This document shows, piece after piece, positions 9,920 through 16,222 of a stretch of DNA of 64,000 nt (positions within the stretch are counted from its first letter, which is position 1; each line of letters starts with the position of its first letter). A program made the position numbers and the translations under genes. The stretch lies in assembly GCF_056712565.1 (NCBI RefSeq), contig NZ_CM160072.1, one strand, 5' to 3'. The notes beneath the pieces are model-generated. The model had not been told where the DNA came from. It saw nothing but the letters and a program-made list of their open reading frames with translations, and searched no databases.

Positions 9920-10520
9920 ATGATTAAGGTGTATGGCGTACCCGGCTGGGGCTCTACAATCAGTGAGCTGATGCTAACACTGGCTGATATTCCTTATCAG
10001 TTCGTTGATGTCAGTGGTTTTGACCACGAGGGAACTTCACGCGATTTATTAAAAACCCTGAATCCGTTGTGTCAGGTTCCGACACTGGCGCTGTAAAAAT
10101 AACGAGATTATGACGGAGACAGCGGCGATTGCATTGATGGTTCTCGATCGTCGCCCGGACCTTGCGCCACCTCTTGGGCGCGCCGAACGTCAACAGTTTC
10201 AACGGCTATTGGTCTGGCTGGTTGCTAATGTCTATCCAACGTTCACTTTCGCCGATTACCCTAAGCGTTGGGCATCTGACGCACCTGTAATTGAATATCG
10301 CAAATCGCTTTATATCTGGCTGAATTCGCAATTGACTGCTGAACCGTATGTGTTTGGAGAGCAACTAACGCTGGTGGACTGTTATCTCTGCACCATGCGC
10401 ACATGGGGACCGGGACACGAATGGTTTCAGGATAATGCCCCGAATATTAATGCGATTGCTGATGCTGTATGTCAGATACCGAAATTACAAGAAGTATTAA
10501 AAAGGAATGTCATTATTTAA
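9920..10520 (+). pseudogene. yncG: Glutathione S-transferase homologue split into two reading frames
   Basis: N-terminal 58 codons (MIKVYGVPGWGSTISELMLTLADIPYQF...PTLAL*) stop at 10094-10096; the remainder continues in another frame as track ORF 10110..10520. Confidence 0.55.
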
Positions 10521-11060
10521 CAATAATGCCGGAGGTTAATGTTAATGAATCACTGGCGTAGTTAACTGGACGTCCATTTGTTTGCTATGAATAGCAATTA
10601 ATGTTGGCACAACTATTCATATGGTTGATGTGATTTCGGTTTTTATATTAAATATCAATTTAATATAATCTGAAAATAAAACATCTTTTCGCATGTAGAG
10701 AAACATGTCGATATGATAGCGCAGTGCAGATCATGTTATCAGGGCTGGGCGGTAGCGTATTTAATCAGGGAAAGATTACGTAACACTGCTTTTTTGTACT
10801 GGACGATTCTCATTTTATGTTTAAAAATTGAGATACTCCTTATTTCCTGAAACTGTTTTTCATTGCTTATACATGATCAAATACTCCTTACATAATTAAG
10901 GAGAACAAAATGAAACTTAATACACGCCAACAATTTGTATTACTTAAATAGACCAGTGAAGGTACGTATCAGAATATCCGGTGAAGTGATTAATATTTCG
11001 TTGAATATTTCTCCGGATTTTTGAAACCTGCTGCTGTAGAAATTCTGAACAGGAGGAATT

Positions 11061-11345
11061 ATGCCTTTAGCAGCCAAACTTACCGACAAAGGCACCCAGC
11101 ACGACGGTTATTACGAGACCGTCATCACCGCCGGGTCATCCACCGTTTTTATCGATGGTCTCCCCGCAGCCCGTCAGGGAGATCCGCTGACGCCGCATGC
11201 TAAACCGAAGCATCCACCTCATCCCCGAAAAATCGCCAGAGGCTCGTCAACCGTCTTTATTGACGGCCTGCCCGCCGCCAGAACCGGTGATGCTATTGAC
11301 TGCGGCGGCGTGGTTATTGGTGGCGGCACGGTAAATATAGGCTGA
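11061..11345 (+). CDS. PAAR-domain protein (type VI secretion spike-sharpening protein)
   Basis: 94-aa ORF with two STVFIDGLPAAR(Q/T)GD motifs and a His-rich segment; strong SD (AGGAGG) 8 nt upstream; immediately precedes vgrG. Confidence 0.8.
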   Translation: MPLAAKLTDKGTQHDGYYETVITAGSSTVFIDGLPAARQGDPLTPHAKPKHPPHPRKIARGSSTVFIDGLPAARTGDAIDCGGVVIGGGTVNIG

Positions 11346-11363
11346 TATGTCTGAGAGGTATTT

Positions 11364-13769
11364 ATGTCCTTAAAAGGTCTTCGCTTTACGCTGGAGGTTG
11401 ACGGCCAGGAGCCGGACACCTTTGCAGTGGTGAGCTTCCGGTTAATCCAGAACCAGTCTTATCCGTTTGTGATGAGTGTGGATGTCGCCAGCGATTCTTT
11501 TATGCAGACGGCGGAGATGCTGCTGGAGAAGAACGCAACGCTGACTATCTGGCAGGGTGTCATCCCGCTGCGTTATGTCACAGGCGTGGTGGCAGGGTTT
11601 GGTATGCAGGAGAACAACGGCTGGCAGATGCGTTATCACCTGCGTATTGAGCCGCCGTTATGGCGGTGCGGGCTGCGGCGGAACTTCCGTATCTTCCAGC
11701 AGCAGGATATCCGGACGATATCGGCCACATTACTGAACGAGAACGGCGTCACGGAGTGGACGCCGCTGTTTTATGAGGACCATCCGGCGCGGGAATTCTG
11801 TGTCCAGTACGGGGAAAGCGACCTGGCGTTTCTGGCGCGGCTGTGGGCGGAGGAGGGGATTTTCTTCTTTGAGCGGTTTGCGGCGGACAGTCCGGAGCAG
11901 AAGCTGACGCTGTGCGACGATGTGGCGGGGCTGTCACAGGCGGGGGAGCTTCCGTTTAACCCGGACACATCGGCAGGAGCGGAGACGGAGTGTGTCAGTA
12001 TGTTCCGTTATGAGGCGCATGTCCGCCCGTCATCGGTGCAGAGCCAGGATTACACGTTTAAGGTGCCGGACTGGCCGGGGATGTATGAGCAGCAGGGTGA
12101 GAGCCTGAACGGACAGCTTGAACAGTATGAAATATTTGATTATCCGGGAAGGTACAAGGATGAACAGCACGGCAAGGATTTCACGCTGTACCGGATGGAG
12201 AGCCTGCGCAGTGATGCGGAAAAGGCCACAGGGCAGAGTAATTCGCCGAAGCTGTGGCCGGGGACGTGGTTTACGCTGACGGGGCATCCGCAGAAGATGC
12301 TGAACCGTGAATGGCAGGTGGTACAGAGCATTCTGTCAGGAGACCAGCCGCAGGCGCTTCACGGCAGCCAGGGGAGAGGAACCACGCTGGGAAATCAGTT
12401 AGAGGTGATACCGGCGGACCGGACGTGGCGTCCACGGCTGCAAAGCAAACCGAAGGTGGACGGGCCACAGAGCGCCATTGTCACCGGGCCTGCGGGAGAG
12501 GAAATCTTCTGTGATGAACATGGCCGGGTACGGGTGAAGTTTCACTGGGACCGTTATCACGGGATGACGGAGGAGAGTTCGTGCTGGGTGCGTGTGTCGC
12601 AGGCGTGGGCGGGGCCGGGATTTGGTAATCTGGCGATACCGCGGGTGGGCCAGGAGGTGATTGTTGATTTTCTGAACGGGGACCCGGACCAGCCGCTGGT
12701 CATGGGCCGGACGTACCATGAGGACAACCGTTCGCCGGGGGACCTGCCGGGAACGAAGACGCAGATGACGATACGGTCGAAGACCTATAAAGGAAGCGGT
12801 TTTAATGAGTTGCGCTTTGAGGATGCGACGGATAAGGAACAGGTCTATATCCACGCGCAGAAGAACATGGACACGGAGGTACTTAACGACCGGACGACGG
12901 ATGTGAAACATGACCATACGGAGACCATCGGGAACGACCAGAAGATAACGGTGGTGAAGGGGCAGACGGTTCAGGTCGGGACCAGAAAAGAAGGGGGCCA
13001 CGACCAGAGTATCACGGTGGCGAACGACCGGTGCATCACGGTACGTAATGACCAGACGCTGCAGGTGACGAATGACCGGACGGTGAGCGTGAGTAATGAT
13101 GACGGCCTGTACGTCAGAAATGACCGTAAAGTGACGGTGGAAGGGAAGCAGGAGCATAAGACGACGGGGAACCATGTCAGCCTGGTGGAGGGAAAGCACA
13201 GCCTGGTGGTGAAGGGGGACCTGGCGAGGAAGGTGAGTGGCGCGCTGGGGATAAAGGTCGACGGGGATATCGTGCTGGAGAGCAGCAGCCGGATAAGCCT
13301 GAAGGTGGGTGGCTCGTTTGTGGTCATCCATTCAGGGGGCGTGGACATCGTCGGGCCGAAAATCAGTCTCAATAGCGGCGGTAGTCCGGGGACGCCGGTG
13401 CCGGCGCTGCAACCGACGGTGCTGAAGACACTGGGGGATGAGAAGAGTGGTGATGGCAGTGATTCCGGAGAAGAAAATGAAGACTCTGGAGGGAACTGCG
13501 TGACCGGAAGTGGTGGTGATGATCGAGGTGACGATGAGGATGAACCTGAAAAATATACTCTCCAGTTCCATTTTACAGACGATGACGGGATACCGTATTC
13601 AGAAACCCGCTACATTGCCTTCTTTGAGGATGGCACGCAGACCCACGGAGAAACGGATGAAGAGGGGTATACAGAGCGTTTTTTTGTATCTAGCAAACAT
13701 GAAATTAAAGTGAAGTTGCTATTTGCGAATGATGATTTTCTCTCAATGGAAGGACACTATGGACGATAA
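11364..13769 (+). CDS. vgrG: VgrG type VI secretion tip/spike protein with an acidic linker and a C-terminal extension
   Basis: 801-aa ORF with a VgrG-type N-terminus (MSLKGLRFTLEVDG), gp27/gp5-like regions, beta-helix repeats (VTVxNDxT...), then a Gly/Asp/Glu-rich linker and a beta-rich tail. Confidence 0.9.
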   Translation: MSLKGLRFTLEVDGQEPDTFAVVSFRLIQNQSYPFVMSVDVASDSFMQTAEMLLEKNATLTIWQGVIPLRYVTGVVAGFGMQENNGWQMRYHLRIEPPLWRCGLRRNFRIFQQQDIRTISATLLNENGVTEWTPLFYEDHPAREFCVQYGESDLAFLARLWAEEGIFFFERFAADSPEQKLTLCDDVAGLSQAGELPFNPDTSAGAETECVSMFRYEAHVRPSSVQSQDYTFKVPDWPGMYEQQGESLNGQLEQYEIFDYPGRYKDEQHGKDFTLYRMESLRSDAEKATGQSNSPKLWPGTWFTLTGHPQKMLNREWQVVQSILSGDQPQALHGSQGRGTTLGNQLEVIPADRTWRPRLQSKPKVDGPQSAIVTGPAGEEIFCDEHGRVRVKFHWDRYHGMTEESSCWVRVSQAWAGPGFGNLAIPRVGQEVIVDFLNGDPDQPLVMGRTYHEDNRSPGDLPGTKTQMTIRSKTYKGSGFNELRFEDATDKEQVYIHAQKNMDTEVLNDRTTDVKHDHTETIGNDQKITVVKGQTVQVGTRKEGGHDQSITVANDRCITVRNDQTLQVTNDRTVSVSNDDGLYVRNDRKVTVEGKQEHKTTGNHVSLVEGKHSLVVKGDLARKVSGALGIKVDGDIVLESSSRISLKVGGSFVVIHSGGVDIVGPKISLNSGGSPGTPVPALQPTVLKTLGDEKSGDGSDSGEENEDSGGNCVTGSGGDDRGDDEDEPEKYTLQFHFTDDDGIPYSETRYIAFFEDGTQTHGETDEEGYTERFFVSSKHEIKVKLLFANDDFLSMEGHYGR

Positions 13770-15469: not shown

Positions 15470-15613
15470 ATGTTGGATATTAAAGGTGAAATTATCACAA
15501 CTGATGCGATGGGTTGCCAGAAAGATATTGCAGAGAAGATACAAAAACAGGGAGGTAATTATTTATTTGCTGTAAAAGGACATAAGGAGCGGATTAATAA
15601 AGCCTTTGAGTGA
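15470..15613 (+). mobile_element. Remnant of an H-repeat-associated (ISAs1-family) transposase gene, 47 codons
   Basis: Translation [47 protein letters not shown] resembles an internal segment of H-repeat / ISAs1 transposases. Confidence 0.45.
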
Positions 15614-15690
15614 AACTTCCGCTGAAAATTCAGGTTAACCGCGTTCCATGCAAACAATTTTCAAATATTCATCAATAAATAAGGAGTTCC

Positions 15691-16156
15691 ATGTTTATAC
15701 GACCAGTCAAACCTTCAGATGTTGAACCATTAATGGATATGCTGCTTGACAGGGATCAATTTGATCAAGATGGCCTTCATCATGTACAAAAAACACTAAC
15801 ACATTATTTCTCAGGTCAATCTGCCGATTTATGGTTTAGTGCAGAACACTTGGGACTGGCAGGGATTGCCTACTGTGCTTCTGAAATGATGACAAATGAT
15901 GTCTGAAATTTATTAATGCTCTGGATCAGTCCTTCCCATCAGCGCCAGGGAGTGAGACATCTGCTGATTAACGAAATAGAAAAGAGCTCACAATTAAACA
16001 GGCAAGACTACTATTAGTAGAGACCGCCAGCCATATCGATTTTAGTGCCGCCCGCGCATTTTATACAAAACAGGGCTTTATCAATGAGGCGATAATACGC
16101 AATTACTATGATGTTGGTGAGGATAAATTAATCTTCACTAAAAATATGCAATCGTG
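15691..16156 (+). pseudogene. GNAT-family acetyltransferase disrupted by two frameshifts
   Basis: Track ORF 15691..15906 (71 aa) continues in two other frames (…WNLLMLWISPSHQRQGVRHLLINEIEKS… then …ETASHIDFSAARAFYTKQGFINEAII…), together making a GNAT-like protein. Confidence 0.45.
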
Positions 16157-16222
16157 AGATAAAATATGCTTTAACTCATATGGAAACATTGCTTAAACAA
16201 CTTGGTTGCTGCATATGATTCT

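What the first reader, a model, noticed from the sequence alone, without database searches (positions are those of the whole stretch)
10520..16160. Low-GC cargo next to high-GC vgrG, bounded by an H-repeat transposase remnant and a decayed GNAT gene
PAAR and vgrG look GC-rich while the effector and immunity genes look strongly AT-rich, which suggests the cargo was acquired separately from the spike genes. Immediately downstream lie a 47-codon fragment resembling H-repeat (ISAs1-type) transposases and a GNAT gene broken into three frames. Together with the recalled K-12 content of this slot, this points to a recombination hotspot where toxin cassettes are swapped. AT-rich cargo of this kind is often H-NS silenced, so expression may need specific conditions.
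Basis: partly seen in the sequence, partly recalled or inferred. Interest (0 to 1): 0.45.

Follow-up and report, generated by a model that had tools for sequence, protein, structure and literature searches.

The report
Swappable T6SS toxin cassette, RhsE slot
This is an ordinary, already described bacterial weapon module: a type VI secretion spike (PAAR and VgrG) carrying a zinc-protease toxin and its antidote, sitting in a chromosomal slot where different E. coli strains hold different toxin cassettes.

Summary
The window is 100% identical to E. coli ATCC 11775. PAAR and vgrG are 57-58% GC; the effector is 32% and the immunity gene 27%. These are the highest and lowest GC values in the 64-kb window.

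The downstream ISAs1/H-repeat fragment and the decayed GNAT gene are confirmed. The GNAT gene has one nonsense codon and one 1-bp deletion, so it lies in three pieces across two frames.

The slot between ansP/yncG and yddH is the RhsE slot of K-12, and I found at least seven different contents in it.

Two diverged strains show that the cargo moves separately. Their flanks and the 5' part of vgrG are 91-96% identical to the window. The stretch from VgrG residue ~570 through the immunity gene is 98-100% identical. The swap unit therefore starts inside vgrG and includes a C-terminal VgrG domain found upstream of every M35-like effector examined.

The effector has an aspzincin (M35) motif and predicted fold. 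It is 100% identical to the BCE049 'M35 peptidase', which was published as toxic only in the periplasm.

H-NS silencing was not tested. Overall the finding is correct but already known, so interest is low.

The parts
9920..10520 (+). yncG (glutathione S-transferase family) pseudogene; left edge of the variable slot
   Evidence: Split ORFs 9920-10096 and 10110-10520 hit GST_N and GST_C domains. PGAP marks it 'frameshifted'. Homology with K-12 ends at 10518.
10764..10920 (+). ISEc1 (H-repeat, ISAs1 family) left-end stub: inverted repeat CAGGGAAAGATTACG from 10766 up to the transposase ATG plus 9 nt
   Evidence: 91.7% identical to nt 1-157 of the intact ISEc1 of strain 2/0. The same stub is present in AF39, FDAARGOS_1290, Nissle derivative, O145 and 372_BP0083.
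10911..10952 (+). 13-codon leader ORF formed by fusing the IS transposase start to a small upstream ORF of the PAAR leader
   Evidence: Junction at the microhomology AATGAAA, seen by comparison with the PAAR2 upstream region of 372_BP0083. Any function is inferred only.
11061..11345 (+). PAAR spike-tip protein (94 aa)
   Evidence: Pfam PAAR_motif E 9e-21. NCBIfam T6SS_PAAR_dom 157.8 bits against a cut-off of 124.
11364..13769 (+). VgrG spike protein (801 aa)
   Evidence: Pfam Phage_GPD, Phage_base_V and Gp5_trimer_C. TIGR03361 at 602 bits. PDB VgrG hits at E 2e-86. Residues 1-398 are 99.7% identical to the VgrG of the strain's own core T6SS cluster. The gene is a mosaic of alleles.
13431..13769 (+). 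Cargo-linked 3' end of vgrG: acidic Gly/Asp/Glu linker plus a ~65-aa beta-sandwich domain (KYTLQFHFTDDDGIPY...)
   Evidence: GC3 drops here. Homology breakpoints lie at 13429 (AF39 orphan fragment) and 13675 (Nissle allele). The domain is conserved in all 7 VgrGs that precede M35-like effectors, across two VgrG classes. In the AF2 model the core reaches pLDDT ~90. The best Foldseek hit is the EAEC VgrG1-Tle1 complex 6sjl, at E 0.048, which is not significant.
13759..14520 (+). M35-like (aspzincin) zinc metallopeptidase effector (253 aa); its start overlaps the vgrG stop by 11 nt
   Evidence: H162-E163-xx-H166, D183 and the NAYNIERYFE motif are invariant in 20 homologues. The family profile hits AsaP1 (2x3a) at E 2.7e-6 and GfMEP (1g12) at E 8e-4. 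The AF2 model has pLDDT 88, and its top Foldseek hits are 1g12, 2x3a and 1eb6. It is 100% identical over 253 aa to the BCE049 M35 peptidase.
14573..15292 (+). Putative periplasmic immunity protein (239 aa)
   Evidence: N-terminus MLQAIKKIIIMTIVNIIFFYSFQSTA|DE reads as a signal peptide, and the protein has 6 Cys. It is 42% identical to the gene after the Salmonella M35 homologue and 33% identical over 90 aa to the Nissle allele's partner. No homologues were found outside E. coli in the word-indexed search. Nissle keeps it as an orphan copy.
15385..15627 (+). Internally deleted, 3'-truncated ISAs1/H-repeat remnant: a diverged left end (about 15385-15462) joined to an internal piece (15466-15627) that contains the 47-codon ORF
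   Evidence: 81% and 90% identical to ISEc1 nt ~1-68 and ~623-785. PGAP calls it an incomplete ISAs1 transposase.
15691..16160 (+). GNAT N-acetyltransferase pseudogene
   Evidence: 94.9% identical to the intact 155-aa VE-T9 allele. It carries TGG>TGA at 15904-15906 and a 1-bp deletion near 15980.
16177..16792 (-). Start of the conserved right flank; yddH (flavin reductase) at 16223-16792
   Evidence: Homology with K-12 and strain 2/0 resumes at 16177. Pfam Flavin_Reduct.

Best explanation
The region is an auxiliary ('orphan') type VI secretion spike-and-cargo operon in the RhsE slot of the E. coli chromosome. PAAR and VgrG form the tip of the secretion needle.

The M35-like zinc protease is most likely loaded onto the small C-terminal domain of this VgrG. 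It would then be fired by the strain's T6SS core cluster at aspV into the periplasm of neighbouring bacteria, where it is toxic. The next gene encodes a signal-peptide-bearing protein that protects sister cells.

The locus is a mosaic because cargo blocks are exchanged by homologous recombination. A cargo block is the VgrG C-terminal domain plus the effector plus the immunity gene. The conserved, GC-rich body of vgrG is the left arm. The H-repeat (ISAs1) copies or the yddH flank are the right arm. Tandem modules can stack, and can collapse again by recombination between vgrG copies. This leaves orphan immunity genes, vgrG fragments, IS stubs and pseudogenes behind.

Shown here: the anatomy, the domain and fold assignments, the breakpoints, the population variation, and the presence of a core T6SS. 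Taken from the literature: periplasmic toxicity of the identical protein. Inferred: loading on the VgrG C-terminal domain, the protective role of the downstream gene, the protease's substrate, and actual secretion in this strain.
For: Gene identities:
- PAAR, VgrG, the M35-like effector and its predicted fold are supported.
- The effector start overlaps the vgrG stop here and in 5 of 5 other contexts.

Cargo-linked domain:
- A conserved C-terminal VgrG domain precedes every M35-like effector examined, in two VgrG classes.

A firing apparatus exists:
- ATCC 11775 has a complete T6SS cluster. Its VgrG is 99.7% identical to this one over residues 1-398.

Published test:
- The identical protein in BCE049 is toxic only when sent to the periplasm. 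That VgrG groups with the T6SS2 VgrG (PMC7904677).

Immunity gene:
- It has a signal-like N-terminus and diverges in step with the effector.

Recombination:
- Sub-region identities show the cargo block moving apart from its flanks.
- Breakpoints lie at 13069, 13429 and 13675 and coincide with the GC3 and GC steps.
- vgrG is a mosaic: its 5' part is 100% identical to module 1 of 372_BP0083 and its 3' part is 100% identical to module 2.
- Nissle keeps an orphan copy of this immunity gene.
- AF39 keeps an orphaned vgrG fragment with an M23 cargo behind an ISEc1.
- The slot varies among genomes.
Against: - No expression, secretion or killing data exist for ATCC 11775.
- The Pfam M35 hit is below the gathering score (19 against 30 bits).
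- The fold match of the VgrG C-terminal domain to the EAEC VgrG1-Tle1 structure is not significant (E 0.048).
- Neutralisation of the toxin by the downstream gene has not been shown for this pair.
- Neighbouring genes are decaying, and copies of the module in O145 RM9872 and BCE049 carry broken genes. The module is therefore not under strong selection everywhere.
- In BCE049, deleting the whole locus did not change mouse virulence.
Confidence: 0.85

Rival explanations
1. The GC contrast does not reflect separate histories. Spike and cargo always travel as one unit, and their composition differs only because of protein composition, codon choice or selection for AT-rich, silenceable toxin genes.
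For: The same three-step pattern recurs in Salmonella, Buttiauxella, an E. coli core T6SS cluster and a metagenome contig: spike 0.59-0.62, VgrG C-terminus 0.41-0.46, effector and immunity 0.31-0.34. Composition is therefore a property of the module class and not a mark of a recent event at this locus.
Against: In FDAARGOS_1290 and O145 RM9872 the cargo block is 98-100% identical to the window, while PAAR, the 5' part of vgrG and both flanks are 91-96% identical. The same spike 5' part carries unrelated cargo in AF39. M35-like cargo sits behind two different VgrG classes. The spike is found in 681 genomes and this cargo in 508.
Confidence: 0.08
2. The cassette is carried by a composite ISAs1 transposon. 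The two co-oriented H-repeat pieces that bracket PAAR through the immunity gene moved it by transposition.
For: ISEc1 pieces lie on both sides in the same orientation. ISAs1 remnants also end the cargo region of the strain's core T6SS cluster and separate modules in AF39, 372_BP0083 and BCE049.
Against: Both pieces are left ends or internal fragments. Neither has a right inverted repeat or an intact transposase. The left exchange boundary is inside vgrG, not at the upstream stub. That stub diverges like the chromosomal flank (93.6%) while the cargo is 99-100% identical. The same downstream IS carries different internal deletions in different lineages, which fits passive decay.
Confidence: 0.05
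3. The module is a non-functional relic that is decaying along with its neighbours and is no longer used as a weapon.
For: yncG, the GNAT gene and both IS copies are broken in the window. vgrG, M35 and the immunity gene are fragmented in O145 RM9872, and the immunity gene is split in BCE049. Deleting the locus had no effect on virulence in BCE049.
Against: All four ORFs are intact in ATCC 11775 and the catalytic motif is invariant. 583 of 647 matching records are at least 99% identical. The strain keeps a complete T6SS with a near-identical VgrG base. The identical effector is still toxic in the periplasm.
Confidence: 0.1

Closest known systems
'T6SS effector locus1', module 5 (VgrG-O2 plus M35 peptidase) of E. 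coli BCE049 (PMC7904677)
   Same: Same chromosomal slot (yncG...yddH) and the same 801-aa VgrG type. The M35 protein is 100% identical over 253 aa. The same ISAs1 fragment and GNAT fragment lie downstream. The published test found toxicity only with periplasmic targeting.
   Different: BCE049 has a second module upstream (PAAR, VgrG, DUF2169, PAAR-like toxin), and its immunity gene is split into two ORFs. ATCC 11775 has a single module with an intact immunity gene.
RhsE element of E. coli K-12 with its H-repeats (yncI, ydcC)
   Same: Same slot between yncG and yddH. In both, a GC-rich conserved delivery gene is followed by AT-rich toxin-tip and immunity genes, and then by co-oriented H-repeat (ISAs1) copies.
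   Different: K-12 carries a truncated Rhs toxin (rhsE') with ydcD, and no PAAR, VgrG or M35. The right edge holds pptA instead of the GNAT gene.
Pseudomonas aeruginosa VgrG2b with PA0261, and the E. coli PAR VgrG/DUF2345/M35 locus (PMC10673891)
   Same: A VgrG-associated zinc metallopeptidase that is toxic in the periplasm and is neutralised by a neighbouring immunity protein.
   Different: In VgrG2b the protease is fused to VgrG. In strain PAR a separate DUF2345 gene bridges VgrG and M35. Here the effector is a separate gene, there is no separate adaptor gene, and Pfam detects no DUF2345. No VgrG2b structure appeared among the Foldseek hits for the effector model. The top hits were the classical M35 enzymes.
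EAEC VgrG1-Tle1 (PDB 6sjl): cargo held by a C-terminal transthyretin-like VgrG domain
   Same: VgrG has an extra C-terminal beta-sandwich domain followed directly by the cargo gene, with no adaptor gene. 6sjl is the top Foldseek hit for this domain.
   Different: The hit is weak (E 0.048). The cargo here is a protease, not a lipase. No binding has been tested.
M35 aspzincins (AsaP1, Grifola peptidyl-Lys metalloendopeptidase, deuterolysin)
   Same: An HExxH motif plus a downstream Asp ligand. The family profile matches at E 2.7e-6, and the predicted fold matches with target TM-score up to 0.76.
   Different: There is no propeptide or secretion signal. There is an extra N-terminal helical region. 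The third-ligand motif reads GGMxxxD rather than GTxDxxYG. The C-terminal NAYNIERYFE motif is specific to the family. The substrate is unknown.
Orphan immunity arrays and displaced effector modules in T6SS auxiliary clusters and Rhs loci (reviewed in PMC6730261)
   Same: Nissle retains this immunity gene as an orphan behind a different M35 allele. AF39 retains a vgrG 3' fragment with its cargo behind an IS.
   Different: Nothing differs in principle. This is one more example of the same pattern.

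Membership tests
T6SS VgrG (TssI) spike | gp27-like base, gp5 OB-fold and beta-helix domains | tested here: met
   Phage_GPD E 2e-77, Phage_base_V and Gp5_trimer_C. TIGR03361 at 602 bits against a cut-off of 186. PDB VgrG1 hit at E 6e-86.
T6SS VgrG (TssI) spike | A cognate T6SS core apparatus in the same genome | tested here: met
   A tssA-M cluster lies at NZ_CP033092.2 3744235-3767267. Its VgrG is 99.7% identical over residues 1-398.
T6SS PAAR tip protein | PAAR domain above the curated cut-off, encoded next to vgrG | tested here: met
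   NF033420 at 157.8 bits against a cut-off of 124. The gene ends 18 nt before vgrG.
Peptidase family M35 (aspzincin) | HExxH zinc-binding motif plus a downstream Asp as third ligand | tested here: met
   H162, E163, H166 and D183 are invariant in 20 homologues. The Asp lies in GGMxxxD rather than the canonical GTxDxxYG.
Peptidase family M35 (aspzincin) | Match to the curated Pfam model above its gathering score | tested here: not met
   Aspzincin_M35 scores 19 bits against a cut-off of 30. The family profile nevertheless reaches AsaP1 at E 2.7e-6. It is therefore a distant relative, best called M35-like.
Peptidase family M35 (aspzincin) | Aspzincin fold | tested here: met
   The AF2 model has pLDDT 88. 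The Foldseek top five are 1g12, 1ge6, 2x3a, 2x3c and 1eb6, each with probability 1.00 and with TMt up to 0.76. This is a predicted structure, not a solved one.
Peptidase family M35 (aspzincin) | Metal-dependent endopeptidase activity | not testable with these tools
   This needs biochemistry.
T6SS antibacterial effector-immunity pair | Effector toxic in a defined compartment of bacterial cells | not testable with these tools
   The literature reports that the identical BCE049 protein is toxic only with a PelB leader (PMC7904677).
T6SS antibacterial effector-immunity pair | The adjacent gene neutralises the toxin and is located in the same compartment | tested here: inconclusive
   The protein has a signal-like N-terminus and diverges in step with the effector. 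It is retained as an orphan in Nissle. Neutralisation itself is untested.
ISAs1 family insertion sequence (ISEc1 / H-repeat) | Two terminal inverted repeats and an intact DDE transposase | tested here: not met
   Only left ends and a 162-bp internal piece are present. These are remnants, not elements. The intact comparator YdcC scores 413 bits on NF033564.
GNAT N-acetyltransferase | Intact acetyltransferase domain | tested here: not met
   The intact VE-T9 allele hits Acetyltransf_7 at E 2e-8. The window copy has a nonsense codon and a frameshift, so it is a pseudogene.
Composite transposon | Complete IS copies on both sides with target-site duplication | tested here: not met
   See the IS rows above. 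The exchange boundary lies inside vgrG.
H-NS-silenced AT-rich island | H-NS occupancy and derepression in an hns mutant | not testable with these tools
   Only the AT-richness is shown. H-NS represses the T6SS2 genes of APEC (PMC5874247), but this operon was not examined.

The most novel reading that the evidence does not exclude
The H-repeat (ISAs1) left ends may not be passive debris. They could act as cassette-boundary sequences of an integron-like exchange system for T6SS and Rhs toxin cassettes, used in trans by an intact YdcC-type transposase. In addition, the upstream stub, which retains the transposase promoter, ribosome-binding site and ATG fused to the PAAR leader, could supply the promoter of the operon.

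What fits this reading: co-oriented IS left ends lie 36-112 bp after the last cargo gene in four different cargo types and at both T6SS loci of this genome. The right edge of the exchanged block falls in the IS.

What does not fit: the left boundary of exchange is ordinary homology inside vgrG.
Probability: 0.07. Interest if true: 0.6.

Novelty: already known. Interest (0 to 1): 0.22.

Why it matters
The module adds one antibacterial toxin and its immunity gene to the arsenal of B2-type E. coli, including the type strain, IHE3034, 536 and BCE049. Nissle carries the immunity gene only. It illustrates how strains come to differ in who can kill whom.

The practical value of this check is mostly negative.

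Two refinements may help T6SS work:
- The exchanged unit begins inside vgrG and carries a small C-terminal VgrG domain. That domain accompanies M35-like effectors across two VgrG classes.
- The compositional steps coincide with the recombination breakpoints.

Tried and rejected
- Single-sequence searches of the effector were uninformative. PDB gave E about 1, Pfam was below the cut-off and NCBIfam gave nothing. A 20-sequence profile and a predicted structure were needed.
- The immunity protein has no PDB or family hit. It has no homologues outside E. coli in the word-indexed search. Its Salmonella and Nissle relatives were found only through gene context.
- The fold search for the VgrG C-terminal domain gave only a weak top hit to 6sjl. 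I do not claim a transthyretin-like fold as shown.
- The promoter and terminator scan was not informative: 19 promoter-like sites against 12.7 +/- 3.4 in shuffles, and terminator-like sites at the chance level.
- A literature search for T6SS work on ATCC 11775 found nothing useful. The core cluster was instead located by walking the annotated genome.
- Plasmid carriage was considered and rejected. The 33.75-kb 'plasmid' hit holds only chromosomal genes.
- A composite-transposon origin was considered and rejected (see rivals).
- I did not attempt an H-NS motif count. AT-rich DNA would score trivially, so the count would not test anything.

Full report
**Identity of the sequence**

The region 10520-16160 is 100% identical to E. 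coli DSM 30083 = ATCC 11775, NZ_CP033092.2 2517583-2523223, on the reverse strand. PGAP annotates, in order:
- yncG (frameshifted);
- a PAAR protein;
- a Vgr family protein;
- 'peptidase M35';
- a hypothetical protein;
- an incomplete ISAs1 family transposase;
- a 71-aa hypothetical protein;
- yddH on the opposite strand.

The flanks are ordinary core genes: pqqU, yncE and ansP on the left, and yddH, nhoA, yddE and narVWYZ on the right. This is the K-12 slot that holds yncH, rhsE', ydcD, yncI, ydcC and pptA.

**Observation check: composition**

| Feature | Coordinates | GC | GC3 |
|---|---|---|---|
| PAAR | 11061-11345 | 0.575 | 0.56 |
| vgrG, whole | 11364-13769 | 0.567 | 0.69 |
| vgrG, residues 1-680 | 11364-13403 | 0.585 | 0.73 |
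| vgrG, residues 681-801 | 13404-13769 | 0.467 | 0.42 |
| M35-like effector | 13759-14520 | 0.324 | 0.25 |
| Immunity gene | 14573-15292 | 0.274 | 0.25 |
| Neighbouring core genes | - | 0.48-0.53 | - |

Among all 700-bp windows of the 64 kb, the GC maximum (0.604) and minimum (0.273) both lie in this operon, 2.5 kb apart. The cargo is 3.7 sd below the rest of the window.

The step is not at the gene border. GC3 starts to fall near 13430 (VgrG residue ~690). The best single change point is 13679.

**Observation check: IS remnants**

The 47-codon ORF lies in 15466-15627, which matches ISEc1 nt ~623-785 at 90%. Just upstream, about 15385-15462 is a diverged (81%) IS left end. This is therefore one internally deleted, 3'-truncated H-repeat.

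10764-10920 is the ISEc1 left end, running from the inverted repeat to the transposase ATG plus 9 nt. It sits in the 33.5%-GC spacer upstream of PAAR. Both pieces have the orientation of the operon.

**Observation check: the GNAT gene**

An intact 155-aa allele in strain VE-T9 hits Pfam Acetyltransf_7 at E 2e-8. Against it, the window copy carries TGG>TGA at 15904-15906 and a 1-bp deletion in an A-run near 15980. That gives three pieces in two frames. The decayed version is at least 99% identical in 415 records.

**What the genes are**

PAAR and VgrG meet the curated models.

The effector family of 20 sequences has four invariant features: TGxDSxVSTLCHEMSH, which contains the HExxH motif; Asp183; and a C-terminal NAYNIERYFE motif.
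- The family profile reaches the M35 aspzincins AsaP1 (E 2.7e-6) and Grifola MEP (E 8e-4).
- The AlphaFold2 model (pLDDT 88, pTM 0.86) has exactly these enzymes and deuterolysin as its only significant Foldseek hits.
- The Pfam hit itself is below the gathering score, so 'M35-like' is the right label.

The downstream protein starts MLQAIKKIIIMTIVNIIFFYSFQSTA|DE. That is a basic stretch, a hydrophobic stretch and then an S-x-A site. It has six cysteines. It is 42% identical to the gene that follows the Salmonella effector homologue, whose effector is 63% identical to this one. It is 33% identical over 90 residues to the partner of the Nissle effector allele. This is the expected behaviour of a cognate immunity protein that works in the periplasm.

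**Link to published work**

BCE049 'T6SS effector locus1' (FQU84_13600-13645) is this same slot. Its 'M35 peptidase' (module 5) is 100% identical over 253 residues to the window protein. That paper reports two things:
- growth inhibition only when the protein is sent to the periplasm with a PelB leader;
- the orphan VgrGs group with the T6SS2 VgrG (PMC7904677).

**A firing apparatus exists**

ATCC 11775 has a complete T6SS cluster next to tRNA-Asp, with tssB, C, E, F, G, J, K, L, H, A and M, tagH, two hcp genes and a vgrG. Its VgrG is 99.7% identical to the window VgrG over residues 1-398 and diverges only after about residue 550. The cluster is 56% GC. The spike's GC-richness is therefore simply T6SS composition. 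That cluster's own cargo is 31-39% GC and also ends in two co-oriented ISAs1 remnants.

**The cargo-linked VgrG domain**

M35-like effectors with 30-63% identity were examined in five other contexts:
- a Salmonella core cluster;
- a Salmonella PAAR-VgrG island;
- Buttiauxella;
- E. coli core T6SS clusters (two near-identical loci, L014 and L015) with a DUF2345-type VgrG;
- a metagenome contig.

In every one, the effector start overlaps the stop of a vgrG by 8-11 nt and a 266-308-aa gene follows.

All these VgrGs, from two different classes, end in the same ~65-residue domain: (K/E)(Y/F)xxxFxFTDDDGxPYxxT(R/K)YIAxFxDGxxxxGxTDxxGYT. The model of this domain is a small beta-sandwich with a core pLDDT of ~90. 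Its best, but non-significant, structural match is the EAEC VgrG1-Tle1 complex.

I infer that this domain is the loading site for M35-like cargo. That would explain the absence of an adaptor gene. The inference rests on co-occurrence only.

**The hotspot: contents of the slot**

| Strain | Contents between ansP/yncG and yddH |
|---|---|
| 2/0 | Intact ISEc1 only |
| K-12 | rhsE', ydcD and two H-repeats |
| AF39 | PAAR, VgrG (654 aa), DUF2169, PAAR-like toxin, DUF4279; then ISEc1; then a vgrG 3' fragment, an M23 peptidase and a hypothetical gene |
| Nissle derivative | Two tandem modules: a DUF4123 type and an M35' type |
| 372_BP0083 and BCE049 | Two tandem modules separated by an ISAs1 remnant |
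| VE-T9 | No spike; orphan genes and the intact GNAT gene |
| O145 RM9872 | Decayed module |

Counts among 5426 complete genomes, taken genome-wide rather than at this slot only:

| Sequence | Genomes with at least 80% coverage |
|---|---|
| This spike | 681 |
| This cargo | 508 |
| K-12 rhsE tip with ydcD | 2441 |
| DUF4123 module | 326 |
| DUF2169/PAAR-like module | 121 |

**The hotspot: evidence for exchange**

Identity to the window in two diverged backgrounds:

| Region | FDAARGOS_1290 | O145 RM9872 |
|---|---|---|
| yncG | 91.3% | 91.9% |
| vgrG residues 1-569 | 93.4% | 94.1% |
| vgrG residues 570-689 | 98.3% | absent (vgrG truncated) |
| vgrG residues 690-771 | 99.6% | absent (vgrG truncated) |
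| M35 | 99.6% | 98.9% |
| Immunity gene | 99.0% | 98.2% |
| Following spacer | 100% | 98.9% |
| yddH | 92.0% | 92.4% |

Further observations:
- Homology breakpoints lie at 13069 (AF39), 13429 (AF39 orphan vgrG fragment) and 13675 (Nissle allele). The last two coincide with the GC3 drop and the GC change point.
- The right edge of the shared block falls in the IS left end. Beyond it the lineages differ: an IS mid-piece plus GNAT in one, and the IS right end plus pptA or other genes in the others.
- The window vgrG is itself a mosaic. Positions 10921 to about 12000 are 99-100% identical to module 1 of 372_BP0083. Positions 12921-13430 are 98-100% identical to its module 2. This fits collapse of a two-module array, or gene conversion between vgrG copies.
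- Nissle has a different M35 allele with its own partner gene, followed by the ATCC-type immunity gene at 99.6% as an orphan.

**Mechanism**

Cargo blocks move by homologous recombination. The left arm is the conserved body of vgrG. The right arm is an H-repeat copy or the chromosomal flank. Incoming modules can displace or stack on older ones.

The IS pieces look like passive homology and debris, not an active transposon. They lack right ends and an intact transposase, and the left exchange boundary is not at the IS.

**What was not shown**

Expression, secretion, the protease's substrate, immunity function and H-NS binding were not shown. H-NS represses T6SS2 genes in APEC and serum relieves that repression (PMC5874247). 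This operon was not studied, and its promoter is unmapped. The promoter scan was uninformative.

**Verdict**

The observation and its interpretation are correct. The system is known in every main respect:
- vgrG islands with effector-immunity modules and orphan immunity genes (PMC6730261);
- this locus and this protein (PMC7904677);
- VgrG-linked metallopeptidase toxins (PMC10673891);
- from my own knowledge, not checked here, the long-known association of H-repeats with Rhs and vgr elements.

Interest is low. Two refinements go slightly beyond what I found in print: the breakpoints inside vgrG coincide with the compositional steps, and a VgrG C-terminal domain travels with M35-like cargo.

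Noticed in passing
window 10911-10952 (and 10764-10920): The PAAR leader begins with a 13-codon ORF (MKLNTRQQFVLLK*). It is a fusion of the ISEc1 transposase ATG to a 16-codon upstream ORF seen before PAAR2 in 372_BP0083, joined at the microhomology AATGAAA. The IS stub keeps the transposase promoter and ribosome-binding region, so it might drive or modulate the operon.
   Followed up: partly
L019 16829-24217 (NZ_CP033092.2 3738829-3746217): The cargo region of the strain's core T6SS cluster (VgrG, DUF2169, PAAR-like toxin, hypothetical gene; GC 0.31-0.39) also ends in two co-oriented ISAs1 remnants. This repeats the pattern seen in the window.
   Followed up: partly
L018 42839-46304 (NZ_CP033092.2 3882839-3886304): Between pdhR and aroP the same genome has a 593-aa Hcp with a C-terminal extension (annotated tssD), followed by three 'bacteriocin immunity protein' genes. 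This is another orphan T6SS toxin island with an immunity array.
   Followed up: no
L023 (NZ_CP110997.1, whole record): A 33.75-kb record labelled plasmid pYUXYEH3783-2 contains only chromosomal genes, from ortT to yddG, including a two-module version of this locus. It has no replication genes. It is probably an assembly artefact, so the 'plasmid' hits are not evidence of mobility.
   Followed up: partly
window 9920-10520: yncG is a pseudogene here. It is frameshifted near 10096-10110 and carries an 18-bp deletion relative to K-12. It is intact in AF39, FDAARGOS_1290, VE-T9 and O145.
   Followed up: partly
window 10740-10765: A second IS-end-like sequence, CAGGGCTGGGCGGTAGCGTAT, lies just before the ISEc1 stub. 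It is shared with K-12 upstream of rhsE'. It may be the end of another H-repeat type, or a conserved junction.
   Followed up: no
L022 13062-13833 and L011 6562-10460: The module is decaying in some carriers. The immunity gene is split into two ORFs in BCE049. In O145 RM9872, vgrG, M35 and the immunity gene are all fragmented.
   Followed up: partly
L012 7735-8814: In a Salmonella core T6SS cluster, the M35 homologue and its partner gene are followed by a 359-aa vgrG 3' fragment (GC 0.60) and further AT-rich genes. This is the same displaced-module pattern in another genus.
   Followed up: partly
window ~40810-40974: dosC (diguanylate cyclase) is reduced to a 165-bp remnant upstream of an intact dosP, according to the PGAP annotation.
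   Followed up: no
window 28985-29043: There is an Rfam SECIS_3 match (84 bits) inside fdnG. This is the expected selenocysteine insertion element and is ordinary.
   Followed up: yes
window 36998-37797, 45470-46741, 52581-54805, 55873-58395: These are other stretches below 40% GC in the window. They correspond to the bdm/sra region, the pqqL-gadB spacer, the ydeM-yddA region and the ydeO-safA-ydeP region. They were not examined further.
   Followed up: no
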